Positions 7,932 through 62,953 of a DNA stretch of 64,000 nucleotides are shown one piece after another. The stretch's first letter is position 1; every line of letters starts with the position of its first letter. A program made the translations under genes and the position numbers. Under the pieces are notes generated by a model. It was given only the letters and a program-made list of their open reading frames with translations, did no database searches and was not told the DNA's origin. The DNA is from Rotaria socialis (lineage: Eukaryota). Location of the stretch: NCBI GenBank assembly GCA_905331295.1, contig CAJNYD010000555.1, positions 1 to 64,000 on the forward strand, read 5' to 3'.

Positions 7932-10285
7932 TCATGAAATTGTTTGTTCTTGGGATCGTGTCCAATAAATCAGACTAATCAGATTAGCTATCAATATCAA
8001 TGGAATAATAGGAAATTCAAAACCACAGCCATATGGTATACCATTTTTCGGTTCTTCAGGTAATGCAACACCTATACCACCATGATGAGCAGCTCGATCG
8101 AGTTGTAAATGATGTTCTCGAACATAACGGCGCGCATGAAATGCATGATATGCACATTTAACAGCTCGACGAATACCGCTGAAAGTGACGAGAACAATAA
8201 AAAAAGTCAATGTAAAAAGAAAAATCCTTTACTTTACACAACCAAATAATATAACACCTTGCAAGGTCAATTGAAGCGTAGTTAGTCGAACAAGTGGAAA
8301 TAAAAAGTAGAAAATCATACCGAAAAGTAGACCCTACAAGAAAAATCCTGAGTTGAACCGAGAAGATTTTTAAAAATTACATTTCAATGCGTATAACCAA
8401 TGAATATGCTAATCAAGTGTCAAAATGTAAACACGCAGATTATCTGCATTGAGAAGCTTTCTACTAGGTTAGCGAAACACTGATTGATAGTGAAACAGGA
8501 GTTACAGAATGTCTAGCGAACAGAATTCAGAATTCGGTGAATTTTTTAAATTCTGAATTCTACTTGCTAGCTTTTCTGCAGACCCTCTAGATAGCATAAA
8601 AGAAAAGCACATTGTGTAGAACACATTCGCATGTAAAAAAAACGGTACCGTACTTGTCCCTCCAGTAGCAGAGTTAACTGGCGAGATGATAACAAATGTT
8701 TGTATTGACGCTATCTTAGATAGAACACTGAATGGGCTCAAATATAATGGGTTAGAAGGCCACCATTTGTGAGATGTAAACGAGTTGACGTTCTTTTTCG
8801 TATGTTTCATCTGTCTATGATGTTCTCCATCTTGTTGGAGACATGAATTTTGATGACAAAATGGCAATAGTTTTTCGCGATACATTAGGCAAAATAATCA
8901 TTGATATTTTTTATCTCTCTCTGTCTCTCTCTGAATAATGGAATATTTCATTATCATACAGTGTTTCAATGTTAACGTTATGAAAAAGGAATCAAGATTC
9001 TATGAGTTATATGCATTGAGATATTCTTATAATCTAACCTGTAAGAATCCGACAACATCATAAACAAGACAATGTGAACGATGTTGACAGCATTGTTCCA
9101 ATGCTTTTATTTCTGTTGCATATTCTTCTGGTACACCTCGTTTCAATTTTTTCGATGGTTCTTTTCTACGAATTGATTCAAATAATTCTATATCAATAAA
9201 ATAATTTTCATATCGATACTAGGATTATTATATATTTTTTTCATTTACTAAACAATTCTTGATTAATTTCTGTTGCACATTCACCTTGCAAACCATGTCC
9301 AGCATTGTCAAGTTTAACAAGACGACAACCGAGTATCTATAATGTCAAATAATTAATATTCGAATCTTTACAATCAAAATACGAACTCGTCGAAGCATAT
9401 AAGAATTTGCTTCTCGTACAAGTAGATCTTCAGTACCAACCATAATCAAGCATTGAAATGGTGAATAACGAATTTTAAGTAGATCAGCATAACTAACATA
9501 ATGTCTGTAAACAGCCATTGTCTGTCCTATAAAACCAATAAGTGTTGGTTTAATACGTTTTCGAACTCGTTCAGCATGATAATCATACAATTCCTATAAT
9601 AATAATAAAAGATTTCATTTCAATGCATTCATCTTTTAACTTTTCGTTTTTCTGGATCGCCAAGTGCCCTTGTACCATACAGCATAGCCATAGCATTTTC
9701 AATTAATGAGTCTTCATCACTCAATAATATAGATCGTGCCATATGACGAATACCAGCAAATGGTGCTCGTCCAGCAAGACCACCAGCATGTGTAGCTAAA
9801 AGTGTTAATGAAAGAATTCTTTCTGGTGCTAGTAATGCTAATTCAAGTGCAGTCATTCCACCCATTGATATACCAACAACATGACATTGATGCCATTGTA
9901 AATGATCAATCAATGCAATGGTATCTTTTGCTATTTGTGTAGTAGAATAATGTAGTGTTAATGGAGAAGACGAACGATTAAATCCACGATTATCAAAGCT
10001 AACACACTATTAAAAAGAAAAGAAATAAACAATGAATAAGATGAGAGATTATTCATTTAGCTCTTATTACATACTTGATAATCGGGTTTTTCAGCAAAGA
10101 AATCAGCCTAAAAAGAACTCTGTTGAATAATGAGATAAATACTTTTTGTATCTCACTTGACGATACCAAGCTGCAGCATCAGCTAAGTATCCCATGATAA
10201 GTAATATTTTTATTTCACCTGAACCGTGTAATTCATAGTATAACTCTAGATTTTGATTTGAAGATGATAATTTTATGTAAGGCAT
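7932..10285 (-). CDS. Alpha/beta hydrolase with C-terminal hydrophobic (membrane) extension, multi-exon
   Basis: Motifs: LYYELHGSG, FDNRG, nucleophile elbow VVGISMGG, acid GTEDLLV, His NAGHGL. The exon ending ...VVGFLQ (donor 9038) joins in phase 0 to GLLFGMIFYFLFPLV (acceptor 8334), and the chain continues into ORF 7932-8210. Confidence 0.8.
8690..8885 (-). mobile_element. Degenerate Tc1/mariner transposase fragment inside the hydrolase intron
   Basis: Translation LQQDG...SFTSHKWWPSNPLYLSP resembles the FQQDGAPAH...WPxNSPDLNP catalytic region of Tc1/mariner DDE transposases. It lies within intron 8334-9038. Confidence 0.5.
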
Positions 10286-10958: not shown

Positions 10959-11291
10959 TTATTTCATATTAAAGTTGAATAAAAGAAATGCAACTGCTGC
11001 CCATGTTTTTGGTACTCCACTCCTTTTGGCAATGACCATGGTGGAGGCATTGTGAATGGTGCCATCGTCGTCGACTTTACCAATCGTTGAATGTTGACTA
11101 TTGAGGACGGTTCCATTGCTTTCCACTTTACCAATAAAACTTCCTATTGAGTTTTGTATAGTCCCATCGTTTTCGATTCTGCCTATGACTCGAGACATTG
11201 AGTCTCGGACAATGCCATCCTTCTCAATTTTACCTACCATCACCGACAATGAATTTCGAATCGTTCCGTCATCATCAATACGACCAACCAT
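10959..11291 (-). CDS. Small intronless repeat protein resembling beta-flower fold proteins
   Basis: Five ~17-aa repeats (V/I)G(R/K)(I/V)xxDG(T/I)(I/V)xN/D, followed by a hydrophobic C-terminal helix WAAVAFLLF. Single 110-aa ORF. Confidence 0.7.
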   Translation of the reverse strand: MVGRIDDDGTIRNSLSVMVGKIEKDGIVRDSMSRVIGRIENDGTIQNSIGSFIGKVESNGTVLNSQHSTIGKVDDDGTIHNASTMVIAKRSGVPKTWAAVAFLLFNFNMK

Positions 11292-12362
11292 TTTTTCGAA
11301 TTCAGCTTATGAAATAGACGCCGATTCTGTTGAATGAAGAAAAAGTCAAGCGGAATGTCATCAAATTTGGCCTATTTCAATGTACTTTTCTTTTTCATTG
11401 TTTTTGTTTTCTTCTATCGAACGGGAAAAAAAAACTTTTTGTTTACTTATTCATATATGGTTGTGTTGCCATTGACTTCTAGTTTTGAGACAAACTATAT
11501 TCCCTTCATAGTGTGTCAATAAGAACAATATATGCTGTAAAAAAAAGTAATATAATCACTTGACTCTGAGGGAGTCCACACCGGCAACATCTCAACATAA
11601 TCGTATTTAGAAGAATGTGGAGACATATTATCAAATTGAAATGTAATTCAAGTAATAAAGATGGCAGAAATGCTACAATGCAATAAACGGATATTAGAGA
11701 ATCAATGCTGGCTGTGATTGTAAATAACTTGATGAATTCTAATATCACTGGTGAACCACATGCATATTACGCGTGAAGAAAACGAAGAGTATCAATTACT
11801 TCTTCATGGTATTATCGGACACTGTTAAATTATATCATTGGAAATTTTCTAGGATTTACTACACCGATGACTGAAGATCTATAATTATTTTCAGAAGTTA
11901 ATCAGAAGAGCAAATTAAGAAAGAGAATTTCTGCAAATGGCTGTGTTTTTCAAAACTCATCTAACATGAGAATTTGGCTGTTATTAGTGTAAGTTTTCGT
12001 TGTTGTTGAGTTCGGTGTTTTATTGGAAATCAGAAAACACAGGAACAAAACAATGGCAACAGAAACAAACTATATCAGAAGATGAGGAGAACAAAATACG
12101 CAATGGAACGAGATATAAATATACCTTTTCTATGTATATCTCTAGATCAAAATGTGTTTGTTCGACCTTGTGTGAGAACAGAAACAAAGGATGAGCACGA
12201 TAGATACACAAGATGAAAAAGAACATATATATTTATATATATCATGAACAATTAGTTACAAAAGAGTCGTGACCAATAATAAAGAAGAGACTTTTCCGAG
12301 TAGTGTCACTCAGATTAACAAGAAAAGTACGAAACTACTTTATTCTACTTATTAACGAAATA

Positions 12363-15849: not shown

Positions 15850-16489
15850 TTACGAAATAATAACGTTCGCGAAGATGTTAGGACCTGCTACATTTGATTT
15901 TAACCAATAACTCACGGCATACACTTGCCCAGTGGTAACATTAAACTGCTGACTCAGTCGATCGAAGCATCCAATAATGGCCTCACAAAAACAATAACTT
16001 CCAATTTGACAGTGGGAAGTACATACATGGCCTGATATTCCTGAGTAATATCCAAGGTGAAAGCGATCCGGTCTCAGAACCCTCATTTTTTAGCATTTGA
16101 ACCGTTCCATCATATACTGATACATCATCAAGATACCATGCACCAGGATCATTGCGAAGTTCAAAGGCAAGAGCAAATGAACCTGTTGTAGGTGATGTTC
16201 ATTCACATGTGAAATATTGATATAAAGTTACAGAGATCGATGCAATTGTTAAAGGAGTACTTGCAGAGTCAACAGAGCTTGGTAAACAAATGGGCGCCAC
16301 ATTCATGACTATAAATATCGATAGAACGGATTATAGAATATAAATTTAAAAAAATGAAATCCCTTTTAAGAATGAAAGAATTGTGAGAAATTTATAATGA
16401 ACAGTTATCGCATAGAAACCTATGAAAAGTATAGCTTTATTTTCTTCATGTTAAACTTGACTTACTTGATGTTGTTGTTGCTGTTGTCT
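15850..16489 (-). pseudogene. Stalked CBM-like family, copy A (pseudogene)
   Basis: Contains FELRNDPGAWYLDDVSV...NEGSETGSLSPW and LSQQFNVTTGQVYAVSYWL. In-frame TGA at 16199-16201 and a frameshifting deletion after SPW. A 24-nt Thr micro-exon is present at 16466-16489; no TM exon was found. Confidence 0.8.
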
Positions 16490-18733: not shown

Positions 18734-20105
18734 TTACAAAAGAGTAACCACTGCAGTTATCACAGAGCCAATTGAATCTGATTTTAACCAGAAACTCACA
18801 ACATACACTTGTCCAGCCGTAGCCGTAAACTGTTGGCTAAGTTGATCGGCACATCCATTACTTCCATCAGTAGCACAATAATTGCCACTACGACATGAAG
18901 AACTATATATTCCCGCTCGGAAACCTCCACAATTTCCATTTGGTCCTGTTCGTACCCAAGGTGAAAGAGTACAAGTTTCGAAACCTATATTTGATAGCAT
19001 TTGTGTGCCTCCTTGATAGATAGAGGTATCATCAAGATACCACTGACCTGGATCATTGCGCAGTTCAAATGTGAAATTAACTGGGCCTGTAGTAGGTGGT
19101 GTCCATTCATATGCATAGCAGCCGTACGTAGTCTTATTGGAAGTTGGGATAGTCAAAAGAGTACTTGCAGAACCAACATAACTAGGGGAGCATGGAGGCA
19201 GTGGTGTTGTTGCTGTTAATGAAGATAAACTTAATGATAGAAGATGAATAGACAAAAATTGATCTCACGAGGTAAGTTCAGATTTCCGAAAAAGTAAATT
19301 TCCGAAAATAACAAATTTCTGTCACACTATTAAAAGACACAAGAGTGCCAACAGAAATTTCCTTCAAACTTCCGTAATTGCCATTACGTACAAAAGAAAG
19401 TTATCAGAAAATACCATAATTTCAAATACCACCCAACAAAATATCCTGGGAATTTCTGAAATCCGCTTCACATAAAGACAGAAATTTTCCGTTAATTTCG
19501 GAAATAACTAATCACATGCCAGCAAATTAGAACCAAAACAAACACTAAATTCTCGACTGCTTTCCGTCATTATCTGGAAATTACGGTAATTTCTATACGA
19601 TATTAATATAGAAATTATGGAAACTTCCGTAATTTCCGAAATTTCCAGTAAAAGACTTTATTTTGGTTTTGGCTTATGGTGAATAATATTGGAGTAATTA
19701 CGAAAGTTTCTGATATTTTCTAAAACTTGACTTTTTCATCCCTGTAGTTTCCGAAATATTCATATTTAACTAGGAAATTTCCTTTTTTGGAAATCTGTCC
19801 AGTGCTGATTCACGATACATTTATAAATATTATCAGGACATACCACTGGTTGATGAAGTTGATGAAGTTGTTGTTATTGTTGTCGATACTGAAAGATTTA
19901 TAAAAGATTTTTCTTTATACGCTCAACTTTAACTCCTTGGAATAACAACAAAGATGTTTCATATAGATTATAGAATACCTGTAGTATTTGGAGATGATGT
20001 TAGCCAAAGTGTAATTATGATAGCTAATACTATACCGCCAAATAATGAACCAACGATGAAATATTTTATACATGTCGATTTGGCTGTACAAATATTGTTA
20101 ACCAA
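18734..20105 (-). CDS. Stalked CBM-like type II membrane protein, copy B (5' end unresolved)
   Basis: TM exon ~19978-20105 (YFIVGSLFGGIVLAIIITLWL), a 45-nt Ser/Thr exon at 19844-19888, and an intact head exon 18734-19212 (FELRNDPGQWYLDD...NIGFETCTLSPW...LSQQF...VSFWL). Confidence 0.7.
19276..19807. mobile_element. MITE-like element in an intron of copy B
   Basis: Imperfect terminal inverted repeats (ttcagatttccgaaaaag / ccttttttggaaatctgtcc) and many internal tttccgaaa/tttccgtaa motifs. Related element at 20503-20765. Confidence 0.55.
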
Positions 20106-25887: not shown

Positions 25888-26064
25888 TTAAGAAAGAGTA
25901 ACCTCTGCAGTTATGCCAGAACCAAGTGAATCTGATCTTAACCAAAAACTCACGGCATACACTTGTCCAACCGTAGTCGTAAATTGTTGACTAAGTTGAT
26001 CGGCACATCCATTACTTCCCTCAGTAACACAATAACTCCCACTGTGACATGAAAAACTGGATAT
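25888..26064 (-). pseudogene. Stalked CBM-like family, copy C (3' fragment only)
   Basis: Translates to SCHSGSYCVTEGSNGCADQLSQQFTTTVGQVYAVSFWLRSDSLGSGITAEVTLS*, then homology stops abruptly. The downstream flank (25770-25840) resembles the flank of copy F (48490-48570). Confidence 0.8.
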
Positions 26065-26899
26065 TTTTATTATATGAAGTCTTTTTTAAATGTGGCTTAG
26101 AATACATTCGATAGAACTATTCCATCACAAATTTCCTCATTTCTTTTAGTTCGCGACACGTTACTGTACTATAAGTGGACAACTTTCATATATATGTGGG
26201 CAAAATTATTTGTTAGTGATGTGACCTCGCAACATTGTAACACATAACTTGGGGCAATGAACGTTCCAGAAAATCACTTTTATACGTTATATGCATATTA
26301 CGTTATTCTAGATACCCTGAAAAACATCAGCCTCAGAGCTCTTAGTTGAGAGCAACTATCACCAATACACTATCGTTAGCTACGTGACATAAAAAAAAAG
26401 AACATTAACTTCTACTTTAGGCATTTTAGTTTAAAAAAGCTCTTAATTAATGACAAAATTTTTGAAAAATAAATAATACATACTGGAGATAACTCTTATA
26501 AATGACAATGAATATTTGCAACTTGAAAGTTAGTTGTCACCTGAAATATTAGCGGTTTGTTTTCACGTAGTTACATAATACTCCTTATTAATATTCAATC
26601 CAAAATTTAATAAACTTAAGAAAATATAATTTTCCAAAACCGGTTAAACTTCTTCAAGGTTGAAACTGAAACCTGTAACAATTTTTATTATTTCGTACGA
26701 AAAATGTTTCCAGTACGACAAATGAGCATCATCTAGTAACAGTAATTGCGCTTTTATTTATTGTATCTACCTTTAGATAGTACGCATATACAAATGTGAT
26801 AAAAACAACCAATGGATAAGGTAGGCTGTAATTCAAAAATGAAACACATTTCTGTAATAACAAATAAAAACTTTGTTATTGACAATTATTTTTCTAGGA

Positions 26900-34691: not shown

Positions 34692-36060
34692 TTACGACAG
34701 AGTAATATTTGCAGACACGACAGAACCTGTTGAGCCTGATTTCAACCAACAACTCACGATATAGATTTCTCCAGATGTAGCCATAAATTGTTGACTAAAC
34801 TGATCGGCACATCCATTACTTCCATCATAAGCAGAATAATTTTCACTATGATACAAAAAATTACACACTTCAGATGGTGCTCCTCCGCAAGCTCCATTCG
34901 ATGTTGTTCGAATCCAATGCGAAAGGTTACTTGTCTCAAAATCAGTATTAGTTAGCATTTGCACAGCTCCAGCATATACTAAGACATCATCAAGATACGA
35001 GTAGTCTGGATCATGAAGCAAATCAAAGGCAAAAGAAGCCAAACCCGTAGTAGGTGATGTCTATTCGTATGCAAAACATCTGTTTGCAATTGTACTGCTA
35101 GATGCTGCTATATAAAGACTACTTGCAGAAACAGCAGAACTAGGAACGCATGGTGGAGCTGGTGTTGTAATTGTGGAAGTAGTTGTGGTTGATGTTGATG
35201 TTGCTGTTGTTGAAGTTCTTGTTGTTACTGTTGATGTTAGTTTATTTGTGAGAAGAAAAACGACGAGAGCAGTAATACCTATCAGAAGTAATAAAATACC
35301 AATAAATGTTGAAATACAACAACATATGAAACATTCTGGATAGATTTTACCAATATAATGACGAGTTATTTTGTAGATATTATTTTTTTTCATTATGTTG
35401 CACTATTTTCTTTAATTTGTTTCCAGTAACGTCCACTGAATATCGGAGAATTCTTTCTTTTGACTCTTGTTCTTGATAATCTCCTCTTCATTTTACTCTT
35501 GATAAATTACTTGAAGCGCCATCATAGTTCATTACACCTGTTAACATTTTTTTGGATGATGATGTCTACGGCGGTAATGAAATAATGAGAGAAATGAATA
35601 AAAAACCAAGAAAAATAATTACTTTCGAAGTCACATTAGATTTATTGTCAGTCGATCTCCTTGTTTTAGTACGAGTAATATCTATACTATTTAATGATGA
35701 AGTTTCACGCATTTTGGTGACTACTGGATGCATAGAAGTTGATGAGAACGTTTTTGATTTATATTGACCTGATGGACCATTCGCTTCTTCTAAGTTTAGA
35801 TAATTAGGCATCGTCTAAAAAAATAGCTGAAAGGAAATTTTTGCAGTCAGATGCAAAAAACAGACTTTCGCTTTGAGCATTAAAAAATCTCGAGAAAACA
35901 AATTTTTAAAGGAACACAACTTTATATAAGGTCATGTATGTTTACCTGTTTTTCTTCGTCACTTCTATCTTCGTTGTAGTGTGCTGAGTGAATAATATCA
36001 TTTCTATTGAGTGAATGTCGACTGTCAGGAGCTACTTTGATTATGGGCACGTTGAAGTAA
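34692..36060 (-). pseudogene. Stalked CBM-like family, copy D (pseudogene)
   Basis: TM (CCCISTFIGILLLLIGITALVVFLL), Thr stalk and head lie in one exon. TAG at 35061-35063 replaces a conserved Trp, there is a further stop after SSNLSRVK, and conserved Cys/Trp residues are lost. Upstream exons are homologous to copies F and G. Confidence 0.8.
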
Positions 36061-41506: not shown

Positions 41507-43300
41507 TTAGGAGAGAGTAACCGTCGCAGTTGTGACAGGTGCTAATGTGCCTGCTCTCAGCCAAAAGCTTACAACATAGACTTCTCCTGCTGTAGCGGTA
41601 AATTGTTGACTGATTTGATCAGCACATCCAAGACTTCCATCATACATACAATAAGTTCCACTGTGACACGAAGAATTAGTTATACTGCCTGGTGTTCCCG
41701 TGCAAGCTCCATGCGGTGTTGTTCGTACCCAAGGTGAAAGAGAGCCAGTTTCGAAACCTATATTAGTTAACATTTGAATAGCTCCATCATAGATTGAGGT
41801 ATCATCAAGTACCCATTGGGAGGGATCATTACGAAGTTCAAAGGTTAAATTAACTGGACCTGTAGTAGGTGACGTCCATGTATATGCGTAGCAGTTGTAC
41901 GTAATTACAGTAGGAGATGAGATCGCCAAAAGAGTACTCGCAGAACCGACAGAAGTAGGAGCACAAGGAGCAGCAGGCGTTGTTGCTGTTAATAACGATA
42001 AACTTAATGAAAGAAAATGAATGGGCAAGCATTGGGCTCACTTGTTGTACTCGTACTAGCTAGAATAATTAAAGAAAAACATTCAAATGAAGAGAAATAA
42101 TGATTCTTTTTATTTGAAACTTGACTTGGTAAGTACTTACAGGTAGTTGATGTTGAAGCTAATGAAAAAGAGAAACGCGAAAATGATTTCTAATAAAAGA
42201 TAATGGATGAAAGTTGTTACTTGCTGATGTCGTACTTGTCGTTGATGTAGCTTAAAAGAAAAATGTAAATAAATCATTTGTTATTTATCTTTTTGAAAGC
42301 ATCCTAAACTAGAAATAATTTGCTTTCATTTCAAACTAATTCTTAAACATCCCCGTCGATATGACAGCGGATGCTAGGGGACTAGGCCTTCTCATTTGTT
42401 CGTGAAATAGTATTAATCAGTACGAATCCTTTCTAAAAAATGATGGCATATAGAGACCTAGTTGCTCTCAATCATGAGCGTTTATGCTAAAATTGAAAAG
42501 TAATGCAATATAAGTTTCGTAAATTCATATTTAGTTCGTATGAAAATATTCATACTGTGTGCTATATACTCAAACCTTGAAATTTCAAAAATATTGAATA
42601 CTGTTTCCTTCGTAATTTGATAGAACTTTTATGGTGATTAATCACATTTGTCACTTGCATGATGTCGTTTGAATACTTGCTTTTACTTGAATAGGAATAT
42701 TAAAAAAATCAGTAGTGAATGCAGTCCTGGCGGTCGAGACTTTCATCCTATGGAGTGCAGGTAGAAGTAATAGTGTGGGGACAAATCTAAGTAGGTCTGA
42801 GCAATAGTTGTAGTGAAAAAATAAAAATACTAGTATTGAAGAAGTACGTTATAAGTGAGGAATATGAATTCTGCAATATTTTTCTCTAAATAGGTGTAAA
42901 CTATAGAGAAGCTAGAATCACCAGGATCGGGGGATCGAAGAAATATGGGCTTCGATAACTCTACGCTTGAATGACGGGAAAATATAGAAATCCACATTAT
43001 ATTCATGAGACATTCTGAAATATCATTGCGACCTACTGTTTATTGATGAAGTTTTTGTAATTTTATGGATACTGGATGATTTATAAAAAAAAGACAATCT
43101 CTTAACAACCGAGTTCTATTTATCATTATAAGTTTATTGGTGATATGAAGAAGTTAAATACAAATTATAGAATACCTGTAAATGATGTTAACCAAAGCAT
43201 GATTACGACGGTTAATATTATACCACCAAATAGTGAACCAATAAGAAAACATAGAATACATATGCATTTTGGTGTATAAATACTGGAAACATGTTCATAT
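41507..43300 (-). CDS. Stalked CBM-like type II membrane protein, copy E (5' end unresolved)
   Basis: TM exon 43176-43300 (ILCFLIGSLFGGIILTVVIMLWL), micro-exons 42221-42250, 42141-42158 and 42042-42059, and an intact head exon 41507-41985. Confidence 0.75.
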
Positions 43301-48580: not shown

Positions 48581-50099
48581 TCAAGAGAGAGTTACTGTCG
48601 CAGTTATACCAGCGCCAAGTGAATCTGTGCTTAACCAAAAACTCACGATATACACTTGTCCAGCCGCAGCCGTAAATTGTTGACTAAGTCGATCGGCGCA
48701 TGAATTACTTCCATCGCAGGCACAATAACTTCCACTTCGACAATTATAATTGCAAATTCGGGCTACGTACCCTCCACAACTTCCATATGGTCCAGTGCGT
48801 ACCCAAGGTGAAAGTGAACCAGTTTCGAAACCTATATTTGTTAGCATTTGTGTGCCTCCTTGATAGATAGAGGTATCATCAACATACCACTGACCTGGAT
48901 CATTGCGCAGCTCAAACATAAAAGTAACTGGACCTGTCGTAGGTGACGTCCATGAATATACATAGCAGCCGTATGTAGTGTCATTGGGAGACGAGATAGT
49001 CAAAAGAATACTTGCAAGACCAACAGAAGTAGGAAGACATGGGGGTAACGGTGTAGTTGTTGTTGATGCTGTCGTTGTGGTTACCGATGTTGTTGAAGTT
49101 GCTGTCGTCGAAGTTGTTGTGGTTGCTGTTGTTGTCACAATATGTGTATTTGTGAGAAGAAAAACCAAGAGAGCAGCAATACCCATCAGAAGTAATAAAA
49201 TACCAATAGATATTGAAACACAACAACATGCCGAACAGGCCGGACAGATTTTACCAATACAGCGACGATTTCTTTTATTGGTTTTGTTTTTTTCAGTATT
49301 TTTCGCTGTTGTCTTTAATCTGTCTTCAAGCACGCCCCATGCATATCGAAGACTTCTTGGTTTTGACTTTTGTTCTTGATATTCTTCCATTGATTTCATT
49401 CTCGATAAATTAGCTGAAACATTATGGTTCATTACACTACTGAAAAGTTTACTGGATGATGATGCCTATGTCAGTAGTAAAGTAAATGAGGACTCAAAAA
49501 AAATAATATGTACCGAAATCTCATTAAATTTATTTTTAGTTGTTCGAATACTGTGAGGATGAATGATATTGTGACGTTTTATTGATGAAGTTTCAGCCAT
49601 TTCAATGACGAGTGGATGCATAGAAGTTGGTGAAACTGGATTTGATTTAAATTTATTAGTAGTAGTGGATATGCCACTCATTTTGCCTGAGCGTAAATCA
49701 TCAGATAGTATCTAAATAAATAATTAAGAGATATTTATCAAATTAGAGGAAAACTATCGAGCATTGACTTCGCAGAATTATAGTAGATGTTCAATAGAAC
49801 AAGAACAATTTCTTTTAATAAAAGATTTTTATCTAGATTACATGGTTTACCTGTTTTTTTCGGATACGCTGATCATTGTTCTTATGCATGGAACGTTTTG
49901 TTTTCCTTCGGATTGATGAATTTCTACTAGCAAGAACTACTGTCACGGACCCCTTAAAAATAAAATCTCAGTAAATTAATGTGATACTTTCGAAAGAACT
50001 TGCGGTTTTTTTATATTTTTTATGAATGCTTGACTGCATATTTTCCCGACGAACAGGAACCACAGTGACTCGTATTTTCGGTTCAGTTTCGAACATCAT
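48581..50099 (-). CDS. Stalked CBM-like type II membrane protein, copy F
   Basis: A single exon 48581-49465 encodes the cytoplasmic part, Cys-rich TM (CCCVSISIGILLLLMGIAALLVFLL), Thr stalk and head. Upstream phase-0 exons at ~49514-49711 and ~49851-49952. The putative first exon (ATG ~50099) seems to carry one extra base in an A-run relative to copy G. Confidence 0.8.
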
Positions 50100-52784: not shown

Positions 52785-55700
52785 TTACGTGAGAGTTACT
52801 GTCGCAGTTATACCAGCGCCAAGTGAATCTGTGCGTAACCAAAAACTCACGATATACACTTGTCCAGCCGCAGCCGTAAATTGTTGACTAAGTCGATCGG
52901 CACATGAATTACTTCCATCGCAGGCACAATAACTTCCACTTCGACAATTATAATTGCAAATTCGGGCTACGTACCCTCCACAACTTCCATATGGTCCAGT
53001 GCGTACCCAAGGTGAAAGTGAACCAGTTTCGAAACCTATATTTGTTAGCATTTGTGTGCCTCCTTGATAGATAGAGGTATCATCAACATACCACTGACCT
53101 GGATCATTGCGCAGCTCAAACATAAAAGTAACTGGACCTGTGGTAGGTGACGTCCATGTATACGCGTAACAATTATACCCAGTAGCAGTAGGATTTGAGA
53201 TAGTCAAAAGAGTACTTGCAGAACCTACTGAGGTTGGTATACAGGGAGGTGTCGGCGTCGTTGCTATTTACATTGGTAAAACAGATTATCAAAGGCAAGC
53301 AAAGTAAAATACAAGTTACCTGTTGTGCTGGTAGAAGTTGAACCTAGAAAAATTAATAAAATTTATTTAAGCAAAACAAACAATCTCTTCTTTGAAGAAT
53401 GATAGCAAAGGATCTACTTTTTTGTAGCTATCAGAGACCATCACAGGGCACAACAAACGACTTTGCCTTGGGAGCTGTGTACTGATCCTAATTTATTTTT
53501 TTCTGATTGACAATATTTGATGTCAATTTTAACCCAATTACTCTTTGTCCAATGTATTTTGATCGAGTGATATGAACTCAAGCTGTTTGTAAATTGAAAT
53601 TAAGTAGTAATGTAATTGAGTCTTTATTTTAATACATATCTTATAAAGTATGAACGTCATATAAAGTTGTTGCTCAAGAACTTTATGAACGAAAAGAACT
53701 CTTTAACAAAAAAAAAGTAAATAAAAATTTTCTTTTCATTCAAAAGATCCAATTTTAATCGAGCCATTTAAAAAATAGGCGACTTTGAAGTAAATAACCA
53801 ACAAAAATAGAAGATTATTCTGTACTAGAAAACTGCTCACTAAAATATTTCATGAAGCTTTACAATTAAGAAATGACGATGTCATTTTGTCTTTTTAATC
53901 TATTTATAGTGACCGATATATTCAATCTTTATTTTCAGAAATAAAAAATTTTGAAGAAATTTTGTAATAAATAGAAAGAATTTGTTTATGTCTATTTTAT
54001 AAAAATTAAGATGAAATAGGACTCTCAGTAAAAAACCTTTTTTGTATTTAAATTACTTTCCTTCCAAAAAAAAAATGGTGTTTTTTTCTAGTGAAAATCC
54101 TAGTATTCAACAACACTTTCTCAATAAAAATGCTTAACTCAATAATAATAAAATTACCTCAAAAATTTTTGAATATAAATTTGAATGCTGTTATAAAACA
54201 AATATGTAAAGAATCAACACTTTCGGAGCAGCAATGTGGTATAGAATTTTTGAAAAACTTATGCATTTCTATTGCGCAGGGAAGGGCTGACTAATATTAT
54301 TATCATTTTGGTTCACACCAATAAGTGTCATTTCTCGTCACAAAGTGGAGCATGACATGTGTCTGGCGCTAAAATTGTGCTTAGCATCAACGAACAATCA
54401 AACAGTTTGATTGGAATAGTAGCATTTCAATCAATTTTTTAGGAGAAAAATACCAATTAAAATTGGATTTCTTCTCGAATCTTCGTACAAACACTGCTAT
54501 CGGACACGCGATTCTATTTAATTGCATACTAATTTTTTGATTTTGACATTCTTTCGTGAAGACATAAAATGAATATGATCACTAGTCTTGAAAAGCAAAT
54601 ACATTACTTTAATCAAGCCTTACGATCTCATATAGGCATATTCAATTTAGAGATTTCATTTCAAATTGCCCTGCTCTGTGATACTCTATGGTAGCTATCA
54701 ATCATAGCTGCGAAGCTGAGAAAAATAAAAACTATATTATCATTTTTCACTTTACTCACTTGTTGTTGTTGTTGTTGTTTGTGCTTGTATATACGAAAAA
54801 GAAAGAATTATACTGGTTTTCTCATGCGACAAAGACATTACTTACATGTAGATGATGTTGAACCTATCATAAACACAAAATAGTAAAGATTAATAGTAAA
54901 AAATTACAAATTACTTGTGGACGATGTCGTTGTAGTTGAAGTTGTCGATGTTGATGTTGTTGAAGTTGTCGACGTTGATGTCGTCGAAGTTGTTGTTGTT
55001 GCTGTTGTTGTCACAATATGTGTATTTGTGAGAAGAAAAACCAAGAGAGCAGCAATACCCATCAGAAGTAATAAAATACCAATAGATATTGAAACACAAC
55101 AACATGCCGAACAGGCCGGACAGATTTTACCAATACAGCGACGATTTCTTTTATCGGTTTTGTTTTTTTCAGTATTTTTCGCTGTTGTCTTTAATCTGTC
55201 TTCAAGCACGCCCCATGCATATCGAAGACTTCTTCGTTTTGGCTTTTGTTCTTGATATTCTTCCATTGATTTCATTCTCGATAAATTACTTGAAACATCA
55301 TGGTTCATTACACTACTGAAAAGTTTACTGGATGATAATGCCTATGTCAGTAGTAAAATCAACGAGAAATCAAGAAAACTAATTAGTACCGAAGTCACAT
55401 TGAAGTTATCTGTAGTTGTTCGAATTCTTTGAGGGTGAATAATAGTTGGAGTTCGGATTGATGAAATTTCATGCATTTCGATGATGACTGGGTGCATAAA
55501 AGTTGGTGTAACTGTATTTGATTTAAATTTATTAACAGATGTTGATAGACCACCTATTTCATCTAAGTGTAAATCATCAGACAACATCTAAATAAATAAT
55601 TAAAAAATATTTATGAAATCAGATAAAATTACTTTCGTATTTACAATGGGAAAAAGAATTTCGACACAACAATATTTTAAGATAAAAGATTTTACTTCAG

Positions 55701-57699: not shown

Positions 57700-57932
57700 T
57701 TGGATTTATAATCAGATTAAAAATCTATTATAATGGCACTATTTTAATCGATTATAATAGTTTTTAGGTAATCAATTAAAATTGATTAAAATACAATCAA
57801 AATCAAAAATAATCTGCCTTTTAAGGCTGGAAAATCTGATTCAAATCAGGTTGTAATAGTATCATTAAAATAGATTTATAATCGCATAAAAATCAATTAT
57901 AATCAGAATTTTTACGTTTCTTTTTACATGGG
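57700..57932. repeat. taatc/gatta motif-rich repeat ending in tttttacatggg (likely transposon end)
   Basis: Repeated ataatcagattaaaaatc-like units. Confidence 0.35.
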
Positions 57933-58349
57933 TAGCAAGACGAATGGTGTGGTTACAATGAAAAAAACCGACGTAGTTTGCTTTCATATACACATCTACA
58001 TGTAAAAATAATTATGCGCCCAATCACTTGTCATAGTTTTGTTCGAATCATGAATATCGTGCTAAGAATAACTACTAATATTTTACCTATTTTGATCATC
58101 AATCACGTGAGGATCTTGTAGGCCAATGCGTATAGTAAAAAGTATAAAAACTTAAGTCAAGTTTCTAGTTAGCTGGATTAAAAATGTGTATGAAAAATCA
58201 CGAGAGCAAAACTCTTAAAAAGAATCAGTTCAATATATAAAAACTCATAATCATTAACGTCGAGTATAGGTACTGGAGATAAATCGATATTCTTGAATTA
58301 TTGAAACATATTTTCTTCGTATCTTAGTTGAAGCTAGTTTCCGATAGCA

Positions 58350-61067
58350 ATGACTGAATTTATGTGCACTTATCTAATAATACTCTTCTGGTCAGTTTTA
58401 CTAGTGCTGGGACGCAACTCTGAAAACGTGGAAAATGTTAGTGAATTAAATTCAGCACACGTGAAAAGGGATGAAGAATCGAACTCAATGGAACCAAATA
58501 ATTATAGTAGGATCTAGTTTCTTTTTTTATTTCATTGAATTTAACTTAGGTACTCTGTAGAGAAATTTGTTGCAACGTACAAGACTAATATTAATGTTTT
58601 GTCCGATAGCATCGATTTATCGAAAATAGAGGAGGAGGTATCTGTATATATATATATATATACATACTCTTTCACTTGTAGTTCTTCATTTATTTTCCTT
58701 TATTCTTTTCATTCAACAGTTTGAATTAGCTCTAAAAGCTGAATCAGAAACTATTACCATAGAACAGATAGAAAGTGTATCAACAAGCGAACATAATCAT
58801 CAATTGTTGTAAGCAATACTTTTTGAATGACGTAAGCGATTTATGTTTATGTTTCTGTATCGCAAGAATAATACGTTCCAATACAAGCAATACGAACTTT
58901 GGAATTATTATTACATTTATTATTAAATTTCCACGTAGCCAAGTATGTCAAACTACTAAATGTATCGATACGTTCTTCAATGGCATGCAACAGCGATTTG
59001 AACGTTTCTGTAACTTGACTATCACACTTGTATACAAGGACCAAAATGGAGTATATAAAGTTCAGCTAAGACTGTGCTCAATTCAGATAACCAGTACGCA
59101 ATCGATCAATACAACATCAACAACGACGACAACTAAGACACCAACTATCACAATCACCTCTCCAACCACAACCACAACTACAACTGCGACTACAACAACA
59201 ACTGCATCAACAACAACAACAACAACAACTACATCAACAACAACAGCATCAACAACTACCGTGTCGACTAAGGAAGATTCAAGTACCTTGTGGTTTACTA
59301 TTGATTGCTAATGTGAAAAGTTATACATTCAATACCTGCAAAATATTTGAATTGGTTCATGGTAAAAAGGATTAAATTTTTACGAGATAAGCAAAGAGAA
59401 ATTATCGTGCTATCCGAGTATAACATAACTTTAGAACTGTAATAGTGTTATTTAGATTTTATATTTTCTTGAAAGGGCTAAAGATTTCGAGGAAGTTGAG
59501 TCGATTGTTGGTATTGCAAGAGTTAAACAGACAGAAGTAAATTATACAGAAAAACTTTCGCTAATTGACGTTTGTTTGAAGTCTCCAGTGTTTTTATCCC
59601 TCCTAGATTAGATACCTCATGTGAGCTTGAAAATAGATTAAATTTTTAAATATAGTAAGTATAGAAGCGTAACAGCTGCAGAATTAGCATTGATCTGACA
59701 ACTCTATTAAAGTGTGAACAGTAGCATTTCGGACTAAGCGATCTGAGAAATAATAATTATGTTTTTAAATGTATTCTAATTAACAAACTATATGTAGAAG
59801 ATTATGCTAGTTGAACTACTAATTCCTTTTTTTTGTAGTGAGTGGCATTGCTGGCAGTGGACTACCTTTTGATAATATGCAACCATCTTTGGTACTTACA
59901 CAAATAGTACCATTGTCTATTACATTTCCTCTATGTGCTATTCGTACTTTTGCATGCAACTTTGCTCCTGGTAATAGTCTTCTAGCATATGGACAACTAC
60001 TCCCGATAGCATCCAATACAGCGATATTTTCTATCATGGGTACAACTTATGGAGGTGACGGTAAAAAAACCTTTGCACTTCCGAATTTACAAGGTATTAC
60101 AATTATTGGTAGTGGTCAAGGTAGTGGCTTATCACCTTATCGCCTAGGCGAACAGACCGGAAGTCAACAAGTAACACTGACTAAAAATCAGATGCCGGCA
60201 CATGTACACTCAATCCCAAGCTCGATTGATTTCACAGGCGTGACAGGTTCATCACAATCATTCTCTTCTATTCAACCATCTTTAGCGATGAGCTATCTGA
60301 TTTGTATAAGTGGTGTTTTTCCATCCGCTGGTTCCTCCGTAGGACAACTACCATTCATCGGTCAAATCGTTCCATATACTGGAAATGTTATACCGACGGG
60401 ATGGGCACTAGCGGATGGAAGCTTATTGTCGATTGCATCAGATACAGCTCTGTTTTCAATACTTGGTACTACGTACGGAGGTGATGGAGTAACTAACTTT
60501 CGTTTACCAGACTTACAAGGCAGAGTACCTGTTGGCGTTTCTGGAAGTTTAAATACACAGATTGGTAATACTATTGGCGTCGAATCTGTTACTCTGTTAA
60601 CCAATAACTTACCTTCACATGTGCATAGTCTAGTCGGTAGCAAGTATAATGCGACTCAAACTGGTGTTACAGGAGCTGGACAGACTTTCGATAATCGGCA
60701 ACCTGGTTTGGGAATCACTTATCTGATAACAATGCAAGGAGTATTTCCATCACAAGGAGGTACTGGTCCAGAACCTATGGCACCTTATCTTGGAGAGATT
60801 GTTGCATTTGCTGGTAATTTTCAGCCAGGGGGTTACGCCTTTGCCAATGACCAACTACTATCAATTTCTCAAAATACAGCTCTCTTTGTTTTGCTGGGTA
60901 CTACTTATGGTGGCAATGGTATAACAAGTTTTGCTCTTCCTGATCTTCGCGGTCGAGTCATCCTCGGATCTGGAAGAGGTTTTAGCATTGGGCAAACCCT
61001 TGGTTCATCGCTGATAACGCTAACAGTAGATCAAATGCCATCTCATGCACATAGTCTTAGCCCATAA
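58350..61067 (+). CDS. Secreted chimeric protein: signal peptide, N-domain, Thr stalk and three phage tail-collar (MdpB-like) repeats
   Basis: Exons 58350-58506, 58561-58637, 58720-58808, 58867-59282 and 59839-61067 join in frame through GT-AG introns. N-terminus MTEFMCTYLIILFWSVLLVLG. The last exon has three copies of G(Q/S)LLxIxxNTALFSxLGTTYGGDGxxxFxLPDLxGR...VTL...MPxHxH. Confidence 0.85.
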
Positions 61068-62317
61068 AACATGATTTAGTATCACTGATATTTTTGTTAA
61101 ATTTCAATATGACCGTTAATGAAGTTTGATCATCACATTTGAACTATAATTTCAGTACTGATTCTTGTCTCCGAATATCCTATTTCATCTATGCAAATGA
61201 AAAAATTGCGTAGCATCATTGATTTCGAATCAAAAATAAAGGGTAACTGCGTAACTAACCATAGGTTTTTCCCGCTTTGTCATGTCGATGATATGCTTCG
61301 TGGAATAATACCATATGAACGTGTGAAAAATGCATAATTTATAGGAATATTTTTATAGCCATTCACAATCACGTATATATTGTATAGGGAGAAGAGTAGT
61401 AAGTAGCTCATAAAAAATACATCAAGAAAGTATCTTCAAGGAAGTCATAACTGCCGGTGAGGTACTCGTTTTTATTTACTTTTGCATTTCTATCAAAAAC
61501 GTTTCTTATTTTACTAGCTTATTTCTACCTTTTCTCTAGCTAACAAACAATTAAACTAATTGTTAAATTCTACTCATACAACAAAACTAATCTTGAATAT
61601 GTGTTGCTGTTGAGTCCGATCATTTTTATTTTTGCCTCACTGCTTATCTTTTCACGTGAAAAATATTCTAGAAAATTCACTGATGATTTCTTCACTAGTA
61701 TTTTCAGTAAAGTTAAGTATTTTATAGCAAAATTAAAATTGTGATTGAGTAATCAAATGAAGCAGGCGTGAGTCATATTCAAAAATACTTGTTTCTTAAT
61801 TTACAAGGCTGTATCATTGTATTGAAATTTTTGACTTGAATCTGATTAGATGTAGTTTCGAAACTGAAATATGTTTACAATTAGGTGTTACCGGCCATAT
61901 CAAGACTCGATTCGTAAAGCAATGTGTGATTGGTATTGGACAATGAAAGAATAAATGTTTTAAGAATATATACTTGTTGGTTCTCTTTTCTGTTCTTTTA
62001 TTCGCATTGTTTATTACAAGGGCATAAATATTTGTTTTCTATTTCTCTTCATTCCTTTTCTCTGCACAGTATTCGCTTCTTTTTCGCGTTATGTTGGTGC
62101 TCCTCCACGTGATATTATATCGTCTTAAATACTAAAAACTGAGCAAAACAAATGCATTTTTGACAACTAGTACATGTCAACACAAATCTATCTAAAGTAA
62201 CGATTTTAATTAATCAAGCGTAACATATCCTGGCATTCATTTACGTGTACACTAAAACACAATAAAAAAAATAGAACGCATATCACCAACAACTTCAGCA
62301 AACATAATATTAAGTAA

Positions 62318-62953
62318 ATGAGCCAAGTTCATTTTTCTAATAACAAAGTATCGTTACCCTTGAATATGATGCATCGAACATGTCGTCGTTCTATGGAAAA
62401 ATTAAATATTTACGACTCGAATACATCACCATCCATTTCATCAAAACCTCAATTACCTCCACCTTTACCACCACCCCGTAAAAATCGGCGCCATCTATAC
62501 AATGGTGAAACTTTCGAACGTTATCACTTTCTCTGTAATATGAAGCGCCATAGAACAGATCCGATTTATGCTGCTACGCCAATGTTTTCAACAATACCAC
62601 AATCAACACCAGTAAAACATACTCGAACATTGCTAGGCGCTTATATACCTTCATATATTATTAAGCCTTTACCGATTCAATCTCCGATGTCTACTACATC
62701 TCCAGAACTATCAAATGCTAATAAAATTGATGATGCAGAAAGAGATAGAAATAAGAATAATGATCAAAATGCAAGTGATGGTGATAAAAATAGAGATGTC
62801 GATGACGATGATGATGACGATCAAGGAAATTCATCAAGTAGTAGTGATGACATTGGTATTGATGATATTATTAATAATGATGATGATGTGATCGATGATA
62901 ATGATAATGATCAAGGGATGGTAGAAAAAATATTCAACACAAATAAGAAATGA
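62318..62953 (+). CDS. Hypothetical low-complexity protein (Pro-rich N-half, Asp/Asn-rich tail)
   Basis: 211-aa ATG-initiated ORF in AT-rich DNA with a PPPLPPPRK motif and acidic tail, followed by aataaa at ~63012. No recognisable domain. Confidence 0.6.
   Translation: MSQVHFSNNKVSLPLNMMHRTCRRSMEKLNIYDSNTSPSISSKPQLPPPLPPPRKNRRHLYNGETFERYHFLCNMKRHRTDPIYAATPMFSTIPQSTPVKHTRTLLGAYIPSYIIKPLPIQSPMSTTSPELSNANKIDDAERDRNKNNDQNASDGDKNRDVDDDDDDDQGNSSSSSDDIGIDDIINNDDDVIDDNDNDQGMVEKIFNTNKK

What the first reader, a model, noticed from the sequence alone, without database searches (positions are those of the whole stretch)
58350..61067. Phage tail-collar module domesticated as a secreted, mucin-stalked eukaryotic protein
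Seen: a 1.2-kb intronless exon with three GTTYGG(D/N)G...LPDLxGR repeats is spliced in frame (phase 1, 59282/59839) behind four intron-separated exons encoding a signal peptide, a ~150-aa domain and a ~50-aa Thr run. Established: this repeat is the phage tail-collar / microcystin-dependent protein (MdpB-like) family of bacteria and phages, related to tail-fibre receptor-binding proteins. Inference: a horizontally acquired fibre-tip module was captured as an exon and is displayed on an O-glycosylated stalk, possibly as a microbe-binding adhesin or recognition protein. The ORF track hides the fusion.
Basis: partly seen in the sequence, partly recalled or inferred. Interest (0 to 1): 0.88.

Follow-up and report, generated by a model that had tools for sequence, protein, structure and literature searches.

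The report
Bacterial fibre-tip knob in a rotifer
A bdelloid rotifer has a gene whose last exon is a bacterial surface module related to phage tail-fibre tips, with three repeats in one chain; it is likely spliced behind a signal peptide and a threonine-rich stalk, and would give a secreted binding protein whose target is untested.

Summary
Five GT-AG-bounded exons (58350-61067) give one 655-aa frame: signal peptide, ~130-aa domain (SEA-like, a lead only), Thr stalk and three Pfam Collar repeats. The DNA is bdelloid rotifer (Rotaria socialis). Ten public gene models also join stalk and collar, but disagree on the junction, and no RNA was available.

The donor was bacterial, not a phage. Bacterial PEP-CTERM, Hint and adhesin proteins carry the same circularly permuted triple at 40-53% identity; Rotaria copies form one clade among them. 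AlphaFold2 gives one rigid body (pTM 0.93), with six conserved His for a likely metal site. The phage head segment is nearly gone, and the chain ends lie at the distal tip, so the stalk would hold the knob collar-outward, opposite to phage use.

Bdelloid gene transfer and gene chimeras are known, and collar transcripts are listed in a 2015 supplement. This single-chain module and its fusion were not found in print. The scan earlier noted three-gene bacterial triads in 7 prokaryote windows, not this form. The sister species' copy looks decayed. Verdict: real; new variant; function untested.

The parts
58236..58241 (+). TATAAA, candidate TATA box about 110 nt upstream of the ATG
   Evidence: function inferred
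58350..58506 (+). Exon 1: first in-frame ATG after a stop, predicted signal peptide (aa 1-21, 58350-58412), KR dibasic site at aa 39-40
   Evidence: its 3' part and donor match public model P0127; no public model includes the signal peptide
58507..58560 (+). Intron 1, 54 nt, GT-AG, phase 1
   Evidence: same junction in P0127
58561..58637 (+). Exon 2: start of the ~130-aa alpha/beta domain (SEA-like, lead only)
58638..58719 (+). Intron 2, 82 nt, GT-AG, phase 0
   Evidence: same junction in P0127
58720..58808 (+). Exon 3: middle of the SEA-like domain
58809..58866 (+). Intron 3, 58 nt, GT-AG, phase 2
   Evidence: same junction in P0127
58867..59282 (+). Exon 4: end of the SEA-like domain and the Thr stalk
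59090..59269 (+). Thr/Ser stalk, 40 T + 8 S + 2 P in 60 aa; length varies among R. socialis models (54-83 aa between CSIQ and SGIAG, 66 here)
59283..59838 (+). Intron 4, 556 nt, phase 1; weak donor, branch-like CTAAT at 59819-59823, pyrimidine tract, TAG
   Evidence: same junction in P0003 only (1 of 10 public models)
59839..61067 (+). Exon 5: circularly permuted triple collar module of bacterial origin, GC 0.42, GC3 0.24
59844..60218 (+). Permuted unit 1: return strand (QPSL), collar, HxH at 60201-60209; linker about 12 aa shorter in Rotaria than in bacteria
60237..60635 (+). Permuted unit 2: return strand, collar (Pfam 60360-60530), HxH at 60618-60626
60663..61061 (+). Permuted unit 3: return strand, collar, HxH at 61044-61052; stop 4 codons later, where bacterial homologues continue into a PEP-CTERM anchor
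61235..61240 (+). AATAAA, candidate polyadenylation signal, the only one in 57900-61600

Best explanation
Exon 5 is a bacterial surface module of three circularly permuted tail-collar repeats that now sits in a Rotaria rotifer chromosome; it is likely spliced behind the signal-peptide, SEA-like and Thr-stalk exons, is predicted to fold as a single-chain, metal-pinned pseudo-trimer, and would be secreted as a binding knob on a glycosylated spacer in mucus or adhesive. Shown: exon layout, domain identity, permuted order, conserved His, host-like codon composition, one Rotaria clade among bacterial-type proteins. Predicted: one rigid body; the three HxH motifs bind one ion on the pseudo-three-fold axis, as His445/His447 do in T4 gp12. 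Inferred history: one transfer into a Rotaria ancestor of a PEP-CTERM- or Hint-type gene, loss of the bacterial signal and anchor, and capture through a phase-1 acceptor at the module start. Inferred mechanism: the permutation cut lies between HxH and the return strand, which is the distal tip of a phage fibre. The stalk here, and the PEP-CTERM anchor in bacteria, therefore attach at the tip, and the collar end faces outward as the probable binding face. The ligand is most likely a surface polymer, such as a microbial glycan or the cuticle of the waterlouse on which this species lives. That last step is a guess.
For: Gene model. Exon 5 is 96-100% identical to R. socialis models and 60-76% to other Rotaria, then 40-53% to non-Rotaria proteins. 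Of 120 best hits, 105 begin with the return strand, 104 end at HxH and 90 do both (motif scan). All six His are kept in 107 of 109 non-Rotaria rows and in 7 of 8 Rotaria-clade rows; 99 of 109 end in a PEP-CTERM-like tail, confirmed by Pfam above cut-off in 6 of 8 sister-clade proteins tested, with a seventh below cut-off and the eighth carrying a Hint domain. Longer homologues carry the module on VCBS, cadherin, Ig-like, RTX and dockerin proteins. Five named Rotaria rows plus three unnamed rows form one clade, SH-aLRT 100. GC3 is 0.24, against 0.26-0.36 in five other window ORFs and 0.45-0.89 in 11 bacterial triple genes. AlphaFold2: pLDDT 96.6, pTM 0.93. Model residues 164-287 align to T4 gp12 332-514 (Z 3.8, rmsd 4.2, 88 aligned) and 169-248 to gp37 811-879 (Z 3.5, rmsd 1.8, 69 aligned). 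The gp12 Zn site and the gp37 collar and receptor-domain limits come from passages of PMC3004832 and PMC12724248. Tip segment 21-24 aa against 55 aa. Stalk-collar join in 10 of 10 R. socialis models.
Against: No transcript confirms any junction. Public models disagree: 8 of 10 use a junction that the window's DNA cannot give, 1 uses a cryptic exon, 1 matches; 9 of 10 start inside exon 4 and none includes the signal peptide. The R. magnacalcarata orthologue lacks the first strand, has 30- and 22-aa gaps and a His-to-Tyr change, so the gene may be dispensable in the sister species. The N-terminal fusion was found only in R. socialis; the Silwood-1 orthologue P0004 is modelled with a short leader directly on the module. 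The window copy departs from 7 of 90 columns conserved in bacteria, including one Gly-to-Asp not shared by two other R. socialis models, though other Rotaria rows show 5-9. The SEA assignment is weak: Atlas score 0.81, no Pfam hit at E<=10, pLDDT 35-54. Whether the triple came intact is not settled by phylogeny: the free unit tree groups by position, but a tree holding all rotifer units together was 9.9 log-likelihood units better and was not rejected (p-AU 0.62). Structural Z-scores are low. I could not inspect model coordinates, so the His geometry and tip orientation rest on alignment ranges. No function is known for the bacterial module.
Confidence: 0.45

Rival explanations
1. The fusion is a prediction artefact or a silent relic. 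Exons 1-4 are a small stand-alone mucin-like gene ending at the stop at 59309-59311, and exon 5 is a separate, poorly expressed or decaying foreign gene.
For: Weak donor and conflicting public junctions. Decayed copy in the sister species. No N-terminal fusion found outside R. socialis. The one R. socialis collar-family transcript named in the Eyres 2015 table has other exon sizes and is a different gene.
Against: Exon 5 is an intact 408-codon frame with six His in all ten R. socialis models. It has no in-frame start before the module and a strong acceptor at the module boundary. There is no AATAAA in intron 4. Stalk length changes between models are all in frame.
Confidence: 0.25
2. One reading: the module works like a phage fibre tip, binding bacterial lipopolysaccharide through its distal end as a recognition or food-capture protein.
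For: Fold relatives are receptor-binding tips. A collar-domain heterotrimer of virophage DSLV2 is reported to bind Synechococcus LPS (abstract and first half of Results). Rotifers eat bacteria.
Against: The head is reduced to 21-24 aa. One of three tip loops is cut and carries the stalk. In DSLV2 and gp37 the binding region lies in the head, outside the collar.
Confidence: 0.15
3. The module binds no specific ligand. It is a very stable metal-pinned knob that caps or cross-links mucus or cuticle proteins, or stores a metal ion.
For: Invariant columns are Gly, Pro, His and one Phe, which points to structure. The module has three Cys.
Against: Bacteria put the module on sorting anchors and adhesin stalks, the usual place of a binding domain. 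One buried ion per 42 kDa is poor storage. No catalytic residue set is conserved.
Confidence: 0.12
4. Contaminant bacterial DNA mis-assembled into a rotifer contig.
For: Exon 5 is intronless and the most GC-rich kilobase of the window (0.43).
Against: The same gene is in many Rotaria assemblies, on contigs up to 6.5 Mb. It diverges along with the species. GC3 is host-like. Neighbours are eukaryotic genes (LIM, F-box, TPR).
Confidence: 0.01

Closest known systems
Bacterial single-chain triple-collar proteins with PEP-CTERM, Hint or adhesin partners (automatic names 'tail fiber protein', 'microcystin-dependent protein'; e.g. P0031 Sphingomonas, P0061 Desulfobulbaceae, P0024 Phycisphaerales)
   Same: Same permuted order, three HxH, short tip, 40-53% identity over the whole module; secreted.
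   Different: The rotifer form has no bacterial signal or anchor, stops 4 aa after the last HxH, has a linker about 12 aa shorter in unit 1, and sits behind intron-containing exons. No study of the bacterial family was found.
Receptor-binding tips of T4 gp12 (1OCY) and gp37 (2XGF), cyanophage A-1(L) fibre (8KEC)
   Same: Collar domain, HxH metal motif, return strand; sequence and fold matches.
   Different: Those are homotrimers on a fibre shaft with a large head. Here it is one chain, permuted, nearly headless and tethered at the tip end.
Tripartite tail proteins of virophage DSLV2 (PMC12724248)
   Same: Three unlike collar units form one knob; LPS binding is reported there.
   Different: Three genes, head retained, viral; the collar end is predicted there to dock on the capsid.
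Three-gene MdpB-like collar triads of bacteria and archaea
   Same: Same family; 38 of 80 prokaryote loci show three one-collar genes in a row.
   Different: Separate, unpermuted genes with a 55-aa head segment; no fusion to host exons.
HGT-chimeras: arthropod screen (PMC13389597) and bdelloid N4CMT, a bacterial methyltransferase fused to a chromodomain (PMC8885841)
   Same: A foreign domain in one reading frame with host-type sequence.
   Different: Here the foreign part is a surface module and the host part is a signal, stalk and weakly assigned domain. The contiguous mRNA is not shown. The arthropod paper's main text has no mention of rotifer or collar.

Membership tests
Phage tail collar domain (Pfam PF07484) | HMM score above the curated cut-off | tested here: met
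   220 bits against cut-off 24, three stretches
Phage tail-fibre receptor-binding tip (gp12/gp37 type) | Collar followed by HxH metal motif and a return strand | tested here: met
Phage tail-fibre receptor-binding tip (gp12/gp37 type) | One unit per chain, trimer of separate chains on a fibre shaft | tested here: not met
   Three permuted units in one chain, no shaft
Phage tail-fibre receptor-binding tip (gp12/gp37 type) | Variable head between HxH and the return strand | tested here: not met
   21-24 aa against a median of 55 aa in 145 of 168 single-unit ORFs that could be measured; gp37 receptor domain spans 907-996
Phage tail-fibre receptor-binding tip (gp12/gp37 type) | Six His bind one ion on the axis | not testable with these tools
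   Six His conserved; model coordinates not available to inspect
Phage tail-fibre receptor-binding tip (gp12/gp37 type) | Binds a bacterial surface receptor | not testable with these tools
   Needs a binding assay
Bacterial single-chain triple-collar module | Return strand first, three collar-HxH units, end after the third HxH | tested here: met
   Window order CNHCNHCNH; 90 of 120 best hits start and end the same way
Bacterial single-chain triple-collar module | C-terminal PEP-CTERM, Hint or adhesin partner | tested here: not met
   Stop 4 aa after the last HxH in the window and 3-4 aa in all Rotaria rows; no NCBIfam hit
Three-gene MdpB-like triad | Three separate unpermuted genes, with a GNAT gene nearby | tested here: not met
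   Single exon; no second collar copy in the window
HGT-chimera (definition of PMC13389597) | A region of non-metazoan origin | tested here: met
   limit: only the best 120 of 3131 and 120 of 407 hits were listed, and most rows are unnamed
HGT-chimera (definition of PMC13389597) | [quoted passage not shown] | tested here: inconclusive
   No homologue of the N-terminal domain outside R. socialis; SEA-like by Atlas features at 0.81 only
HGT-chimera (definition of PMC13389597) | Contiguous chimeric mRNA | not testable with these tools
   No RNA holder was listed
HGT-chimera (definition of PMC13389597) | Purifying selection on the foreign part | not testable with these tools
   No orthologous DNA to compute dN/dS; protein-level signs are mixed
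SEA domain (PF01390) | HMM match or ferredoxin-like fold | tested here: inconclusive
   No Pfam hit at E<=10; low-confidence model with alternating helices and strands; no SEA row in fold searches. The GSVV cleavage motif (recalled) is absent: GIII here.
Mucin-type glycoprotein | Signal peptide and Thr/Ser-rich stalk | tested here: met
   80% Thr/Ser over 60 aa; signal by hydropathy; Pfam Mucin hit weak, E 0.054
Mucin-type glycoprotein | O-glycosylation of the stalk | not testable with these tools
   Needs glycoproteomics
Mucin-type glycoprotein | Membrane anchor (for membrane mucins) | tested here: not met
   No 19-residue window above 1.82 outside the N-terminus, and that one lies in a predicted strand

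The most novel reading that the evidence does not exclude
An animal has adopted an undescribed bacterial protein family, a single-chain, circularly permuted, headless tail-fibre knob, and mounted it on its own mucin stalk as a working secreted adhesin or microbe-recognition protein. It binds with the collar face, the end opposite to the one phages use, so the rotifer protein would reveal what a very widespread bacterial surface module does.
Probability: 0.22. Interest if true: 0.8.

Novelty: new variant of a known kind. Interest (0 to 1): 0.52.

Why it matters
If expressed as modelled, it is a traceable case of a surface-recognition module passing from phage-type fibres to bacterial cell surfaces and on to an animal, with the bacterial targeting signals swapped for animal ones at exact module boundaries. 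It also exposes a widespread bacterial family (single-chain triple collar) for which no study was found. A 42-kDa single-chain module that would need no trimer assembly is easy to express and screen, which makes the ligand question testable for both the bacterial and the rotifer proteins. The surprise is limited: bdelloids hold thousands of foreign genes, chimeras are known in them, and the sister species appears to be losing this one.

Tried and rejected
RNA: no RNA holder was listed; the one run offered held none of the words and laid nothing. This says nothing about expression.

No whole genome is held for this window, so other copies in the same genome and relatives' DNA could not be searched. 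The metagenome scan gave 2 loci; L002 is a short match in another kind of gene and L001 (30% identity) was not examined. Neither listing indicated rotifer DNA.

N-terminal domain: the homologue search returned only R. socialis self-matches among proteins of 328-1045 aa. The representative search with a 74-aa piece of exon 4 gave one hit, an unrelated repetitive protein, and did not return the gene itself, so it is weak. Fold searches of the full model showed no SEA row, but that part of the model is unreliable. The Atlas search of the collar part did not complete.

A relic signal-peptide exon in intron 4 was sought and not found. The short leader of P0004 aligns with the intron's pyrimidine tract here, so it may be intron read-through by the gene caller; not resolved. 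A micro-exon to explain the common public junction was not found.

The unit-by-unit tree was inconclusive; by pairwise score the collinear assignment was best in 41 of 109 rows, about 18 expected. Foldseek on PDB gave no match at E<=0.001; the viral library gave only partial matches, TM by query 0.25 or less. The bacterial promoter scan was irrelevant. No transposon-like repeats flank the gene. An enzyme role was rejected: no conserved catalytic set. No complex prediction was run, as no protein-protein binding is claimed.

Literature: 'bdelloid' + 'tail collar' gave 0 papers; listings showed no paper on this module in animals or on the permuted triple. The main text of the Adineta pathogen preprint has 0 mentions; its supplements were not seen and could list such genes.
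Full report
1. Observation. The region holds five exons, 58350-58506, 58561-58637, 58720-58808, 58867-59282 and 59839-61067, with four GT-AG introns of 54, 82, 58 and 556 nt. Joined, they read as one frame of 655 aa. The ATG at 58350 is the first after an in-frame stop 15 nt upstream. The protein has a hydrophobic stretch at residues 8-20, a KR pair at 39-40, a ~130-aa alpha/beta domain, a 60-aa stalk with 40 Thr and 8 Ser, and three Pfam Collar repeats (E 1.9e-66). A TATAAA lies at 58236 and the only AATAAA of 57900-61600 at 61235.

2. Organism and integration. Exon 5 is 96-100% identical to proteins named Rotaria socialis, 76% to R. magnacalcarata and 60-69% to two Silwood species. These come from many assemblies, on contigs up to 6.5 Mb. 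Neighbouring frames are eukaryotic (LIM, F-box, TPR). GC3 of exon 5 is 0.24, against 0.26-0.36 in five other window frames and 0.45-0.89 in 11 bacterial triple genes. Contamination is very unlikely.

3. Is the fusion real? But only P0003 has the 59282/59839 junction; 8 use a junction that this DNA cannot give, and P0124 uses a cryptic exon. Nine start inside exon 4 and none has the signal peptide. Passages of PMC7943196 say that R. socialis assemblies were annotated by BRAKER with RNA-seq; if these models come from that pipeline (inferred), their disagreement suggests little read support at this locus. From the sequence: 59283 is the only phase-1 donor among five, it is weak, the acceptor is strong and sits at the module start, exon 5 has no in-frame start before residue 13, and intron 4 has no mini-exon and no AATAAA. 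I put the spliced fusion at about 0.65-0.7. No RNA run could be laid on it.

4. Source of exon 5. After Rotaria, the best hits are 40-53% identical over the whole module; the named ones are bacteria and most are unnamed (best 120 of 3131 listed). In alignment A1 (the window plus 116 of those 120; three near-identical R. socialis rows and P0040 left out), 99 of 109 non-Rotaria rows end in a PEP-CTERM-like tail. Longer homologues carry the module on VCBS, cadherin, Ig-like, RTX, dockerin and Hint proteins (best 120 of 407). Five named Rotaria rows and three unnamed rows form one clade (SH-aLRT 100) among these; the sister group is unsure (81) and the root is not inferred. Phages have only single units: 0 of 360 matching records cover 80% in one place, and a motif scan found three collars in one frame in 0 of 80 viral loci (45 had no motif by this scan) against 11 of 80 prokaryote loci; 38 of the 80 prokaryote loci had three separate one-collar genes. 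So the proximate donor was a bacterial surface-protein gene.

5. Anatomy. The chain begins with the strand that ends a normal unit (QPSL), then runs collar, HxH, return strand, twice more, and stops four residues after the third HxH. Of the 120 best hits, 90 start and end the same way. Sharing this permutation with bacteria is the main reason to think the triple came intact. The unit tree does not settle it: units 1 and 2 group with bacterial units 1 and 2 in the free tree, but a tree with all rotifer units together fit better by 9.9 log-likelihood units and was not rejected (p-AU 0.62). All six His are kept in 107 of 109 non-Rotaria rows and 7 of 8 Rotaria-clade rows. AlphaFold2 gives pLDDT 96.6 and pTM 0.93 for the 408 aa, as expected of one rigid body. 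Model residues 164-287 align with T4 gp12 332-514 (Z 3.8, rmsd 4.2, 88 aligned), and 169-248 with gp37 811-879 (Z 3.5). In gp12, His445 and His447 of three chains bind one Zn on the axis (passage of PMC3004832). In gp37 the collar is 811-860 plus 1016-1026 and the receptor domain is 907-996 (Results of PMC12724248, first part). A single-chain pseudo-trimer with a six-His site is therefore predicted. I could not inspect coordinates.

6. Consequence for mechanism. The stretch from HxH to the return strand is 21 and 24 aa here and a median of 21 aa in bacterial triples, against 55 aa in single-unit genes (145 of 168 measurable). The head that binds receptors in phages is nearly absent. The permutation cut lies in that same tip, so the rotifer stalk and the bacterial PEP-CTERM anchor both attach at the tip end, and the collar end would face outward (inferred). 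All Rotaria rows share a shortening of about 12 aa in the first collar-end linker, which could be adaptation of that face or drift. I commit to a secreted binding knob on a glycosylated spacer, used in mucus or adhesive. The ligand is a guess. R. socialis lives on waterlice (passage of PMC4632278).

7. N-terminal domain. No relative was found outside R. socialis. Atlas features rank SEA-containing clusters second and third at 0.81, with SEA on 49% and 26% of members, a lead only. Pfam gives no SEA hit, the model there has pLDDT 35-54, and fold searches add nothing. That SEA domains sit beside mucin stalks is recalled knowledge.

8. Signs against function. The R. magnacalcarata model lacks the first strand and the first HxH, has a 22-aa gap in collar 3 and a His-to-Tyr change, and shows 11 substitutions and 13 gaps at 90 conserved columns against 7 and 0 here. 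The fusion is seen in one species. The Silwood-1 orthologue has a short leader in place of the stalk, which may be a real signal or intron read-through. A Silwood-1 paralogue begins with a Ser/Thr-rich stretch (P0017).

9. What is known. Table 9 of the supplement of PMC4632278 (searched by term; rows seen, no sequences) lists foreign transcripts named tail-collar or microcystin-dependent protein in R. sordida (2), R. tardigrada (1) and R. socialis (1). The R. socialis one maps at 99.8% to R. magnacalcarata DNA in pieces of 439, 63 and 89 nt, unlike this gene. So collar genes in Rotaria are on record as foreign and transcribed, without comment in the main text (0 mentions of 'phage'). Chimeras of foreign and host sequence are known: 104 origins in arthropods (passages of PMC13389597) and N4CMT in bdelloids (passages of PMC8885841). 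A collar heterotrimer of virophage DSLV2 is reported to bind LPS (abstract). PMC9881135 mentions a PilV-collar fusion in a pilus locus (passages). Searches for this module in animals or for the permuted triple found nothing (listings only). Earlier notes of this scan describe three-gene triads in 7 prokaryote windows; word searches for a rotifer case or the single-chain form gave 0, and there are no notes on this genome. Supplements of the eLife, PNAS and bioRxiv papers were not seen.

10. Verdict. A real, integrated, horizontally acquired module with a probable but unproven fusion to host-type exons. It is a new variant of a known kind (HGT-chimera in a bdelloid). The fresh points are the undescribed bacterial single-chain family, its permuted headless design, and the tip-end tether. 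Interest 0.52.

Noticed in passing
window 15853-16264, 18740-19174, 25891-26076, 34695-35402, 41510-41947, 48584-49465, 52788-53225, 54904-55341, all on the - strand: A tandem family of at least seven copies of a Cys-rich domain, several behind a transmembrane segment and a Thr stalk. The domain has sub-threshold hits to the bacterial surface domains NTTRR-F1 (E 4e-5) and choice-of-anchor C; no plasmid match. It may be a second bacterial-type module on a host stalk, next to this gene.
   Followed up: partly
window 55104-55184 (+): The R. magnacalcarata model P0005 begins with sequence resembling the antisense of that stalk family, which hints that the collar gene lies beside the same family in the sister species and that its own 5' exons are missing or were not called.
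   Followed up: partly
window 10962-11306 (-): Five-fold beta-flower protein, Pfam PF21785, E 5e-25; possibly another foreign gene, not tested.
   Followed up: no
window 9632-10006 (-): Alpha/beta hydrolase exon, Pfam PF00561; origin not tested.
   Followed up: no
window 59476-59510 (+), inside intron 4: A short in-frame cryptic exon used by public model P0124; possible alternative splicing or a gene-caller error.
   Followed up: no
L015, L017, L029, L038, L039, L056: A second bacterial triple-collar type in which the motif scan found no HxH, on RTX- or adhesin-like proteins; it may fold without the metal site.
   Followed up: no
PMC4632278 supplement file 1, Table 9: Other collar-family foreign transcripts, some spliced, in R. 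sordida, R. tardigrada, R. socialis, R. magnacalcarata and one Adineta ricciae orthologue, with notable protist scores. Bdelloids may hold several collar families.
   Followed up: partly
window 62318-62953 (+): A 211-codon frame with a proline-rich part and an Asp/Asn-rich tail; not identified.
   Followed up: no
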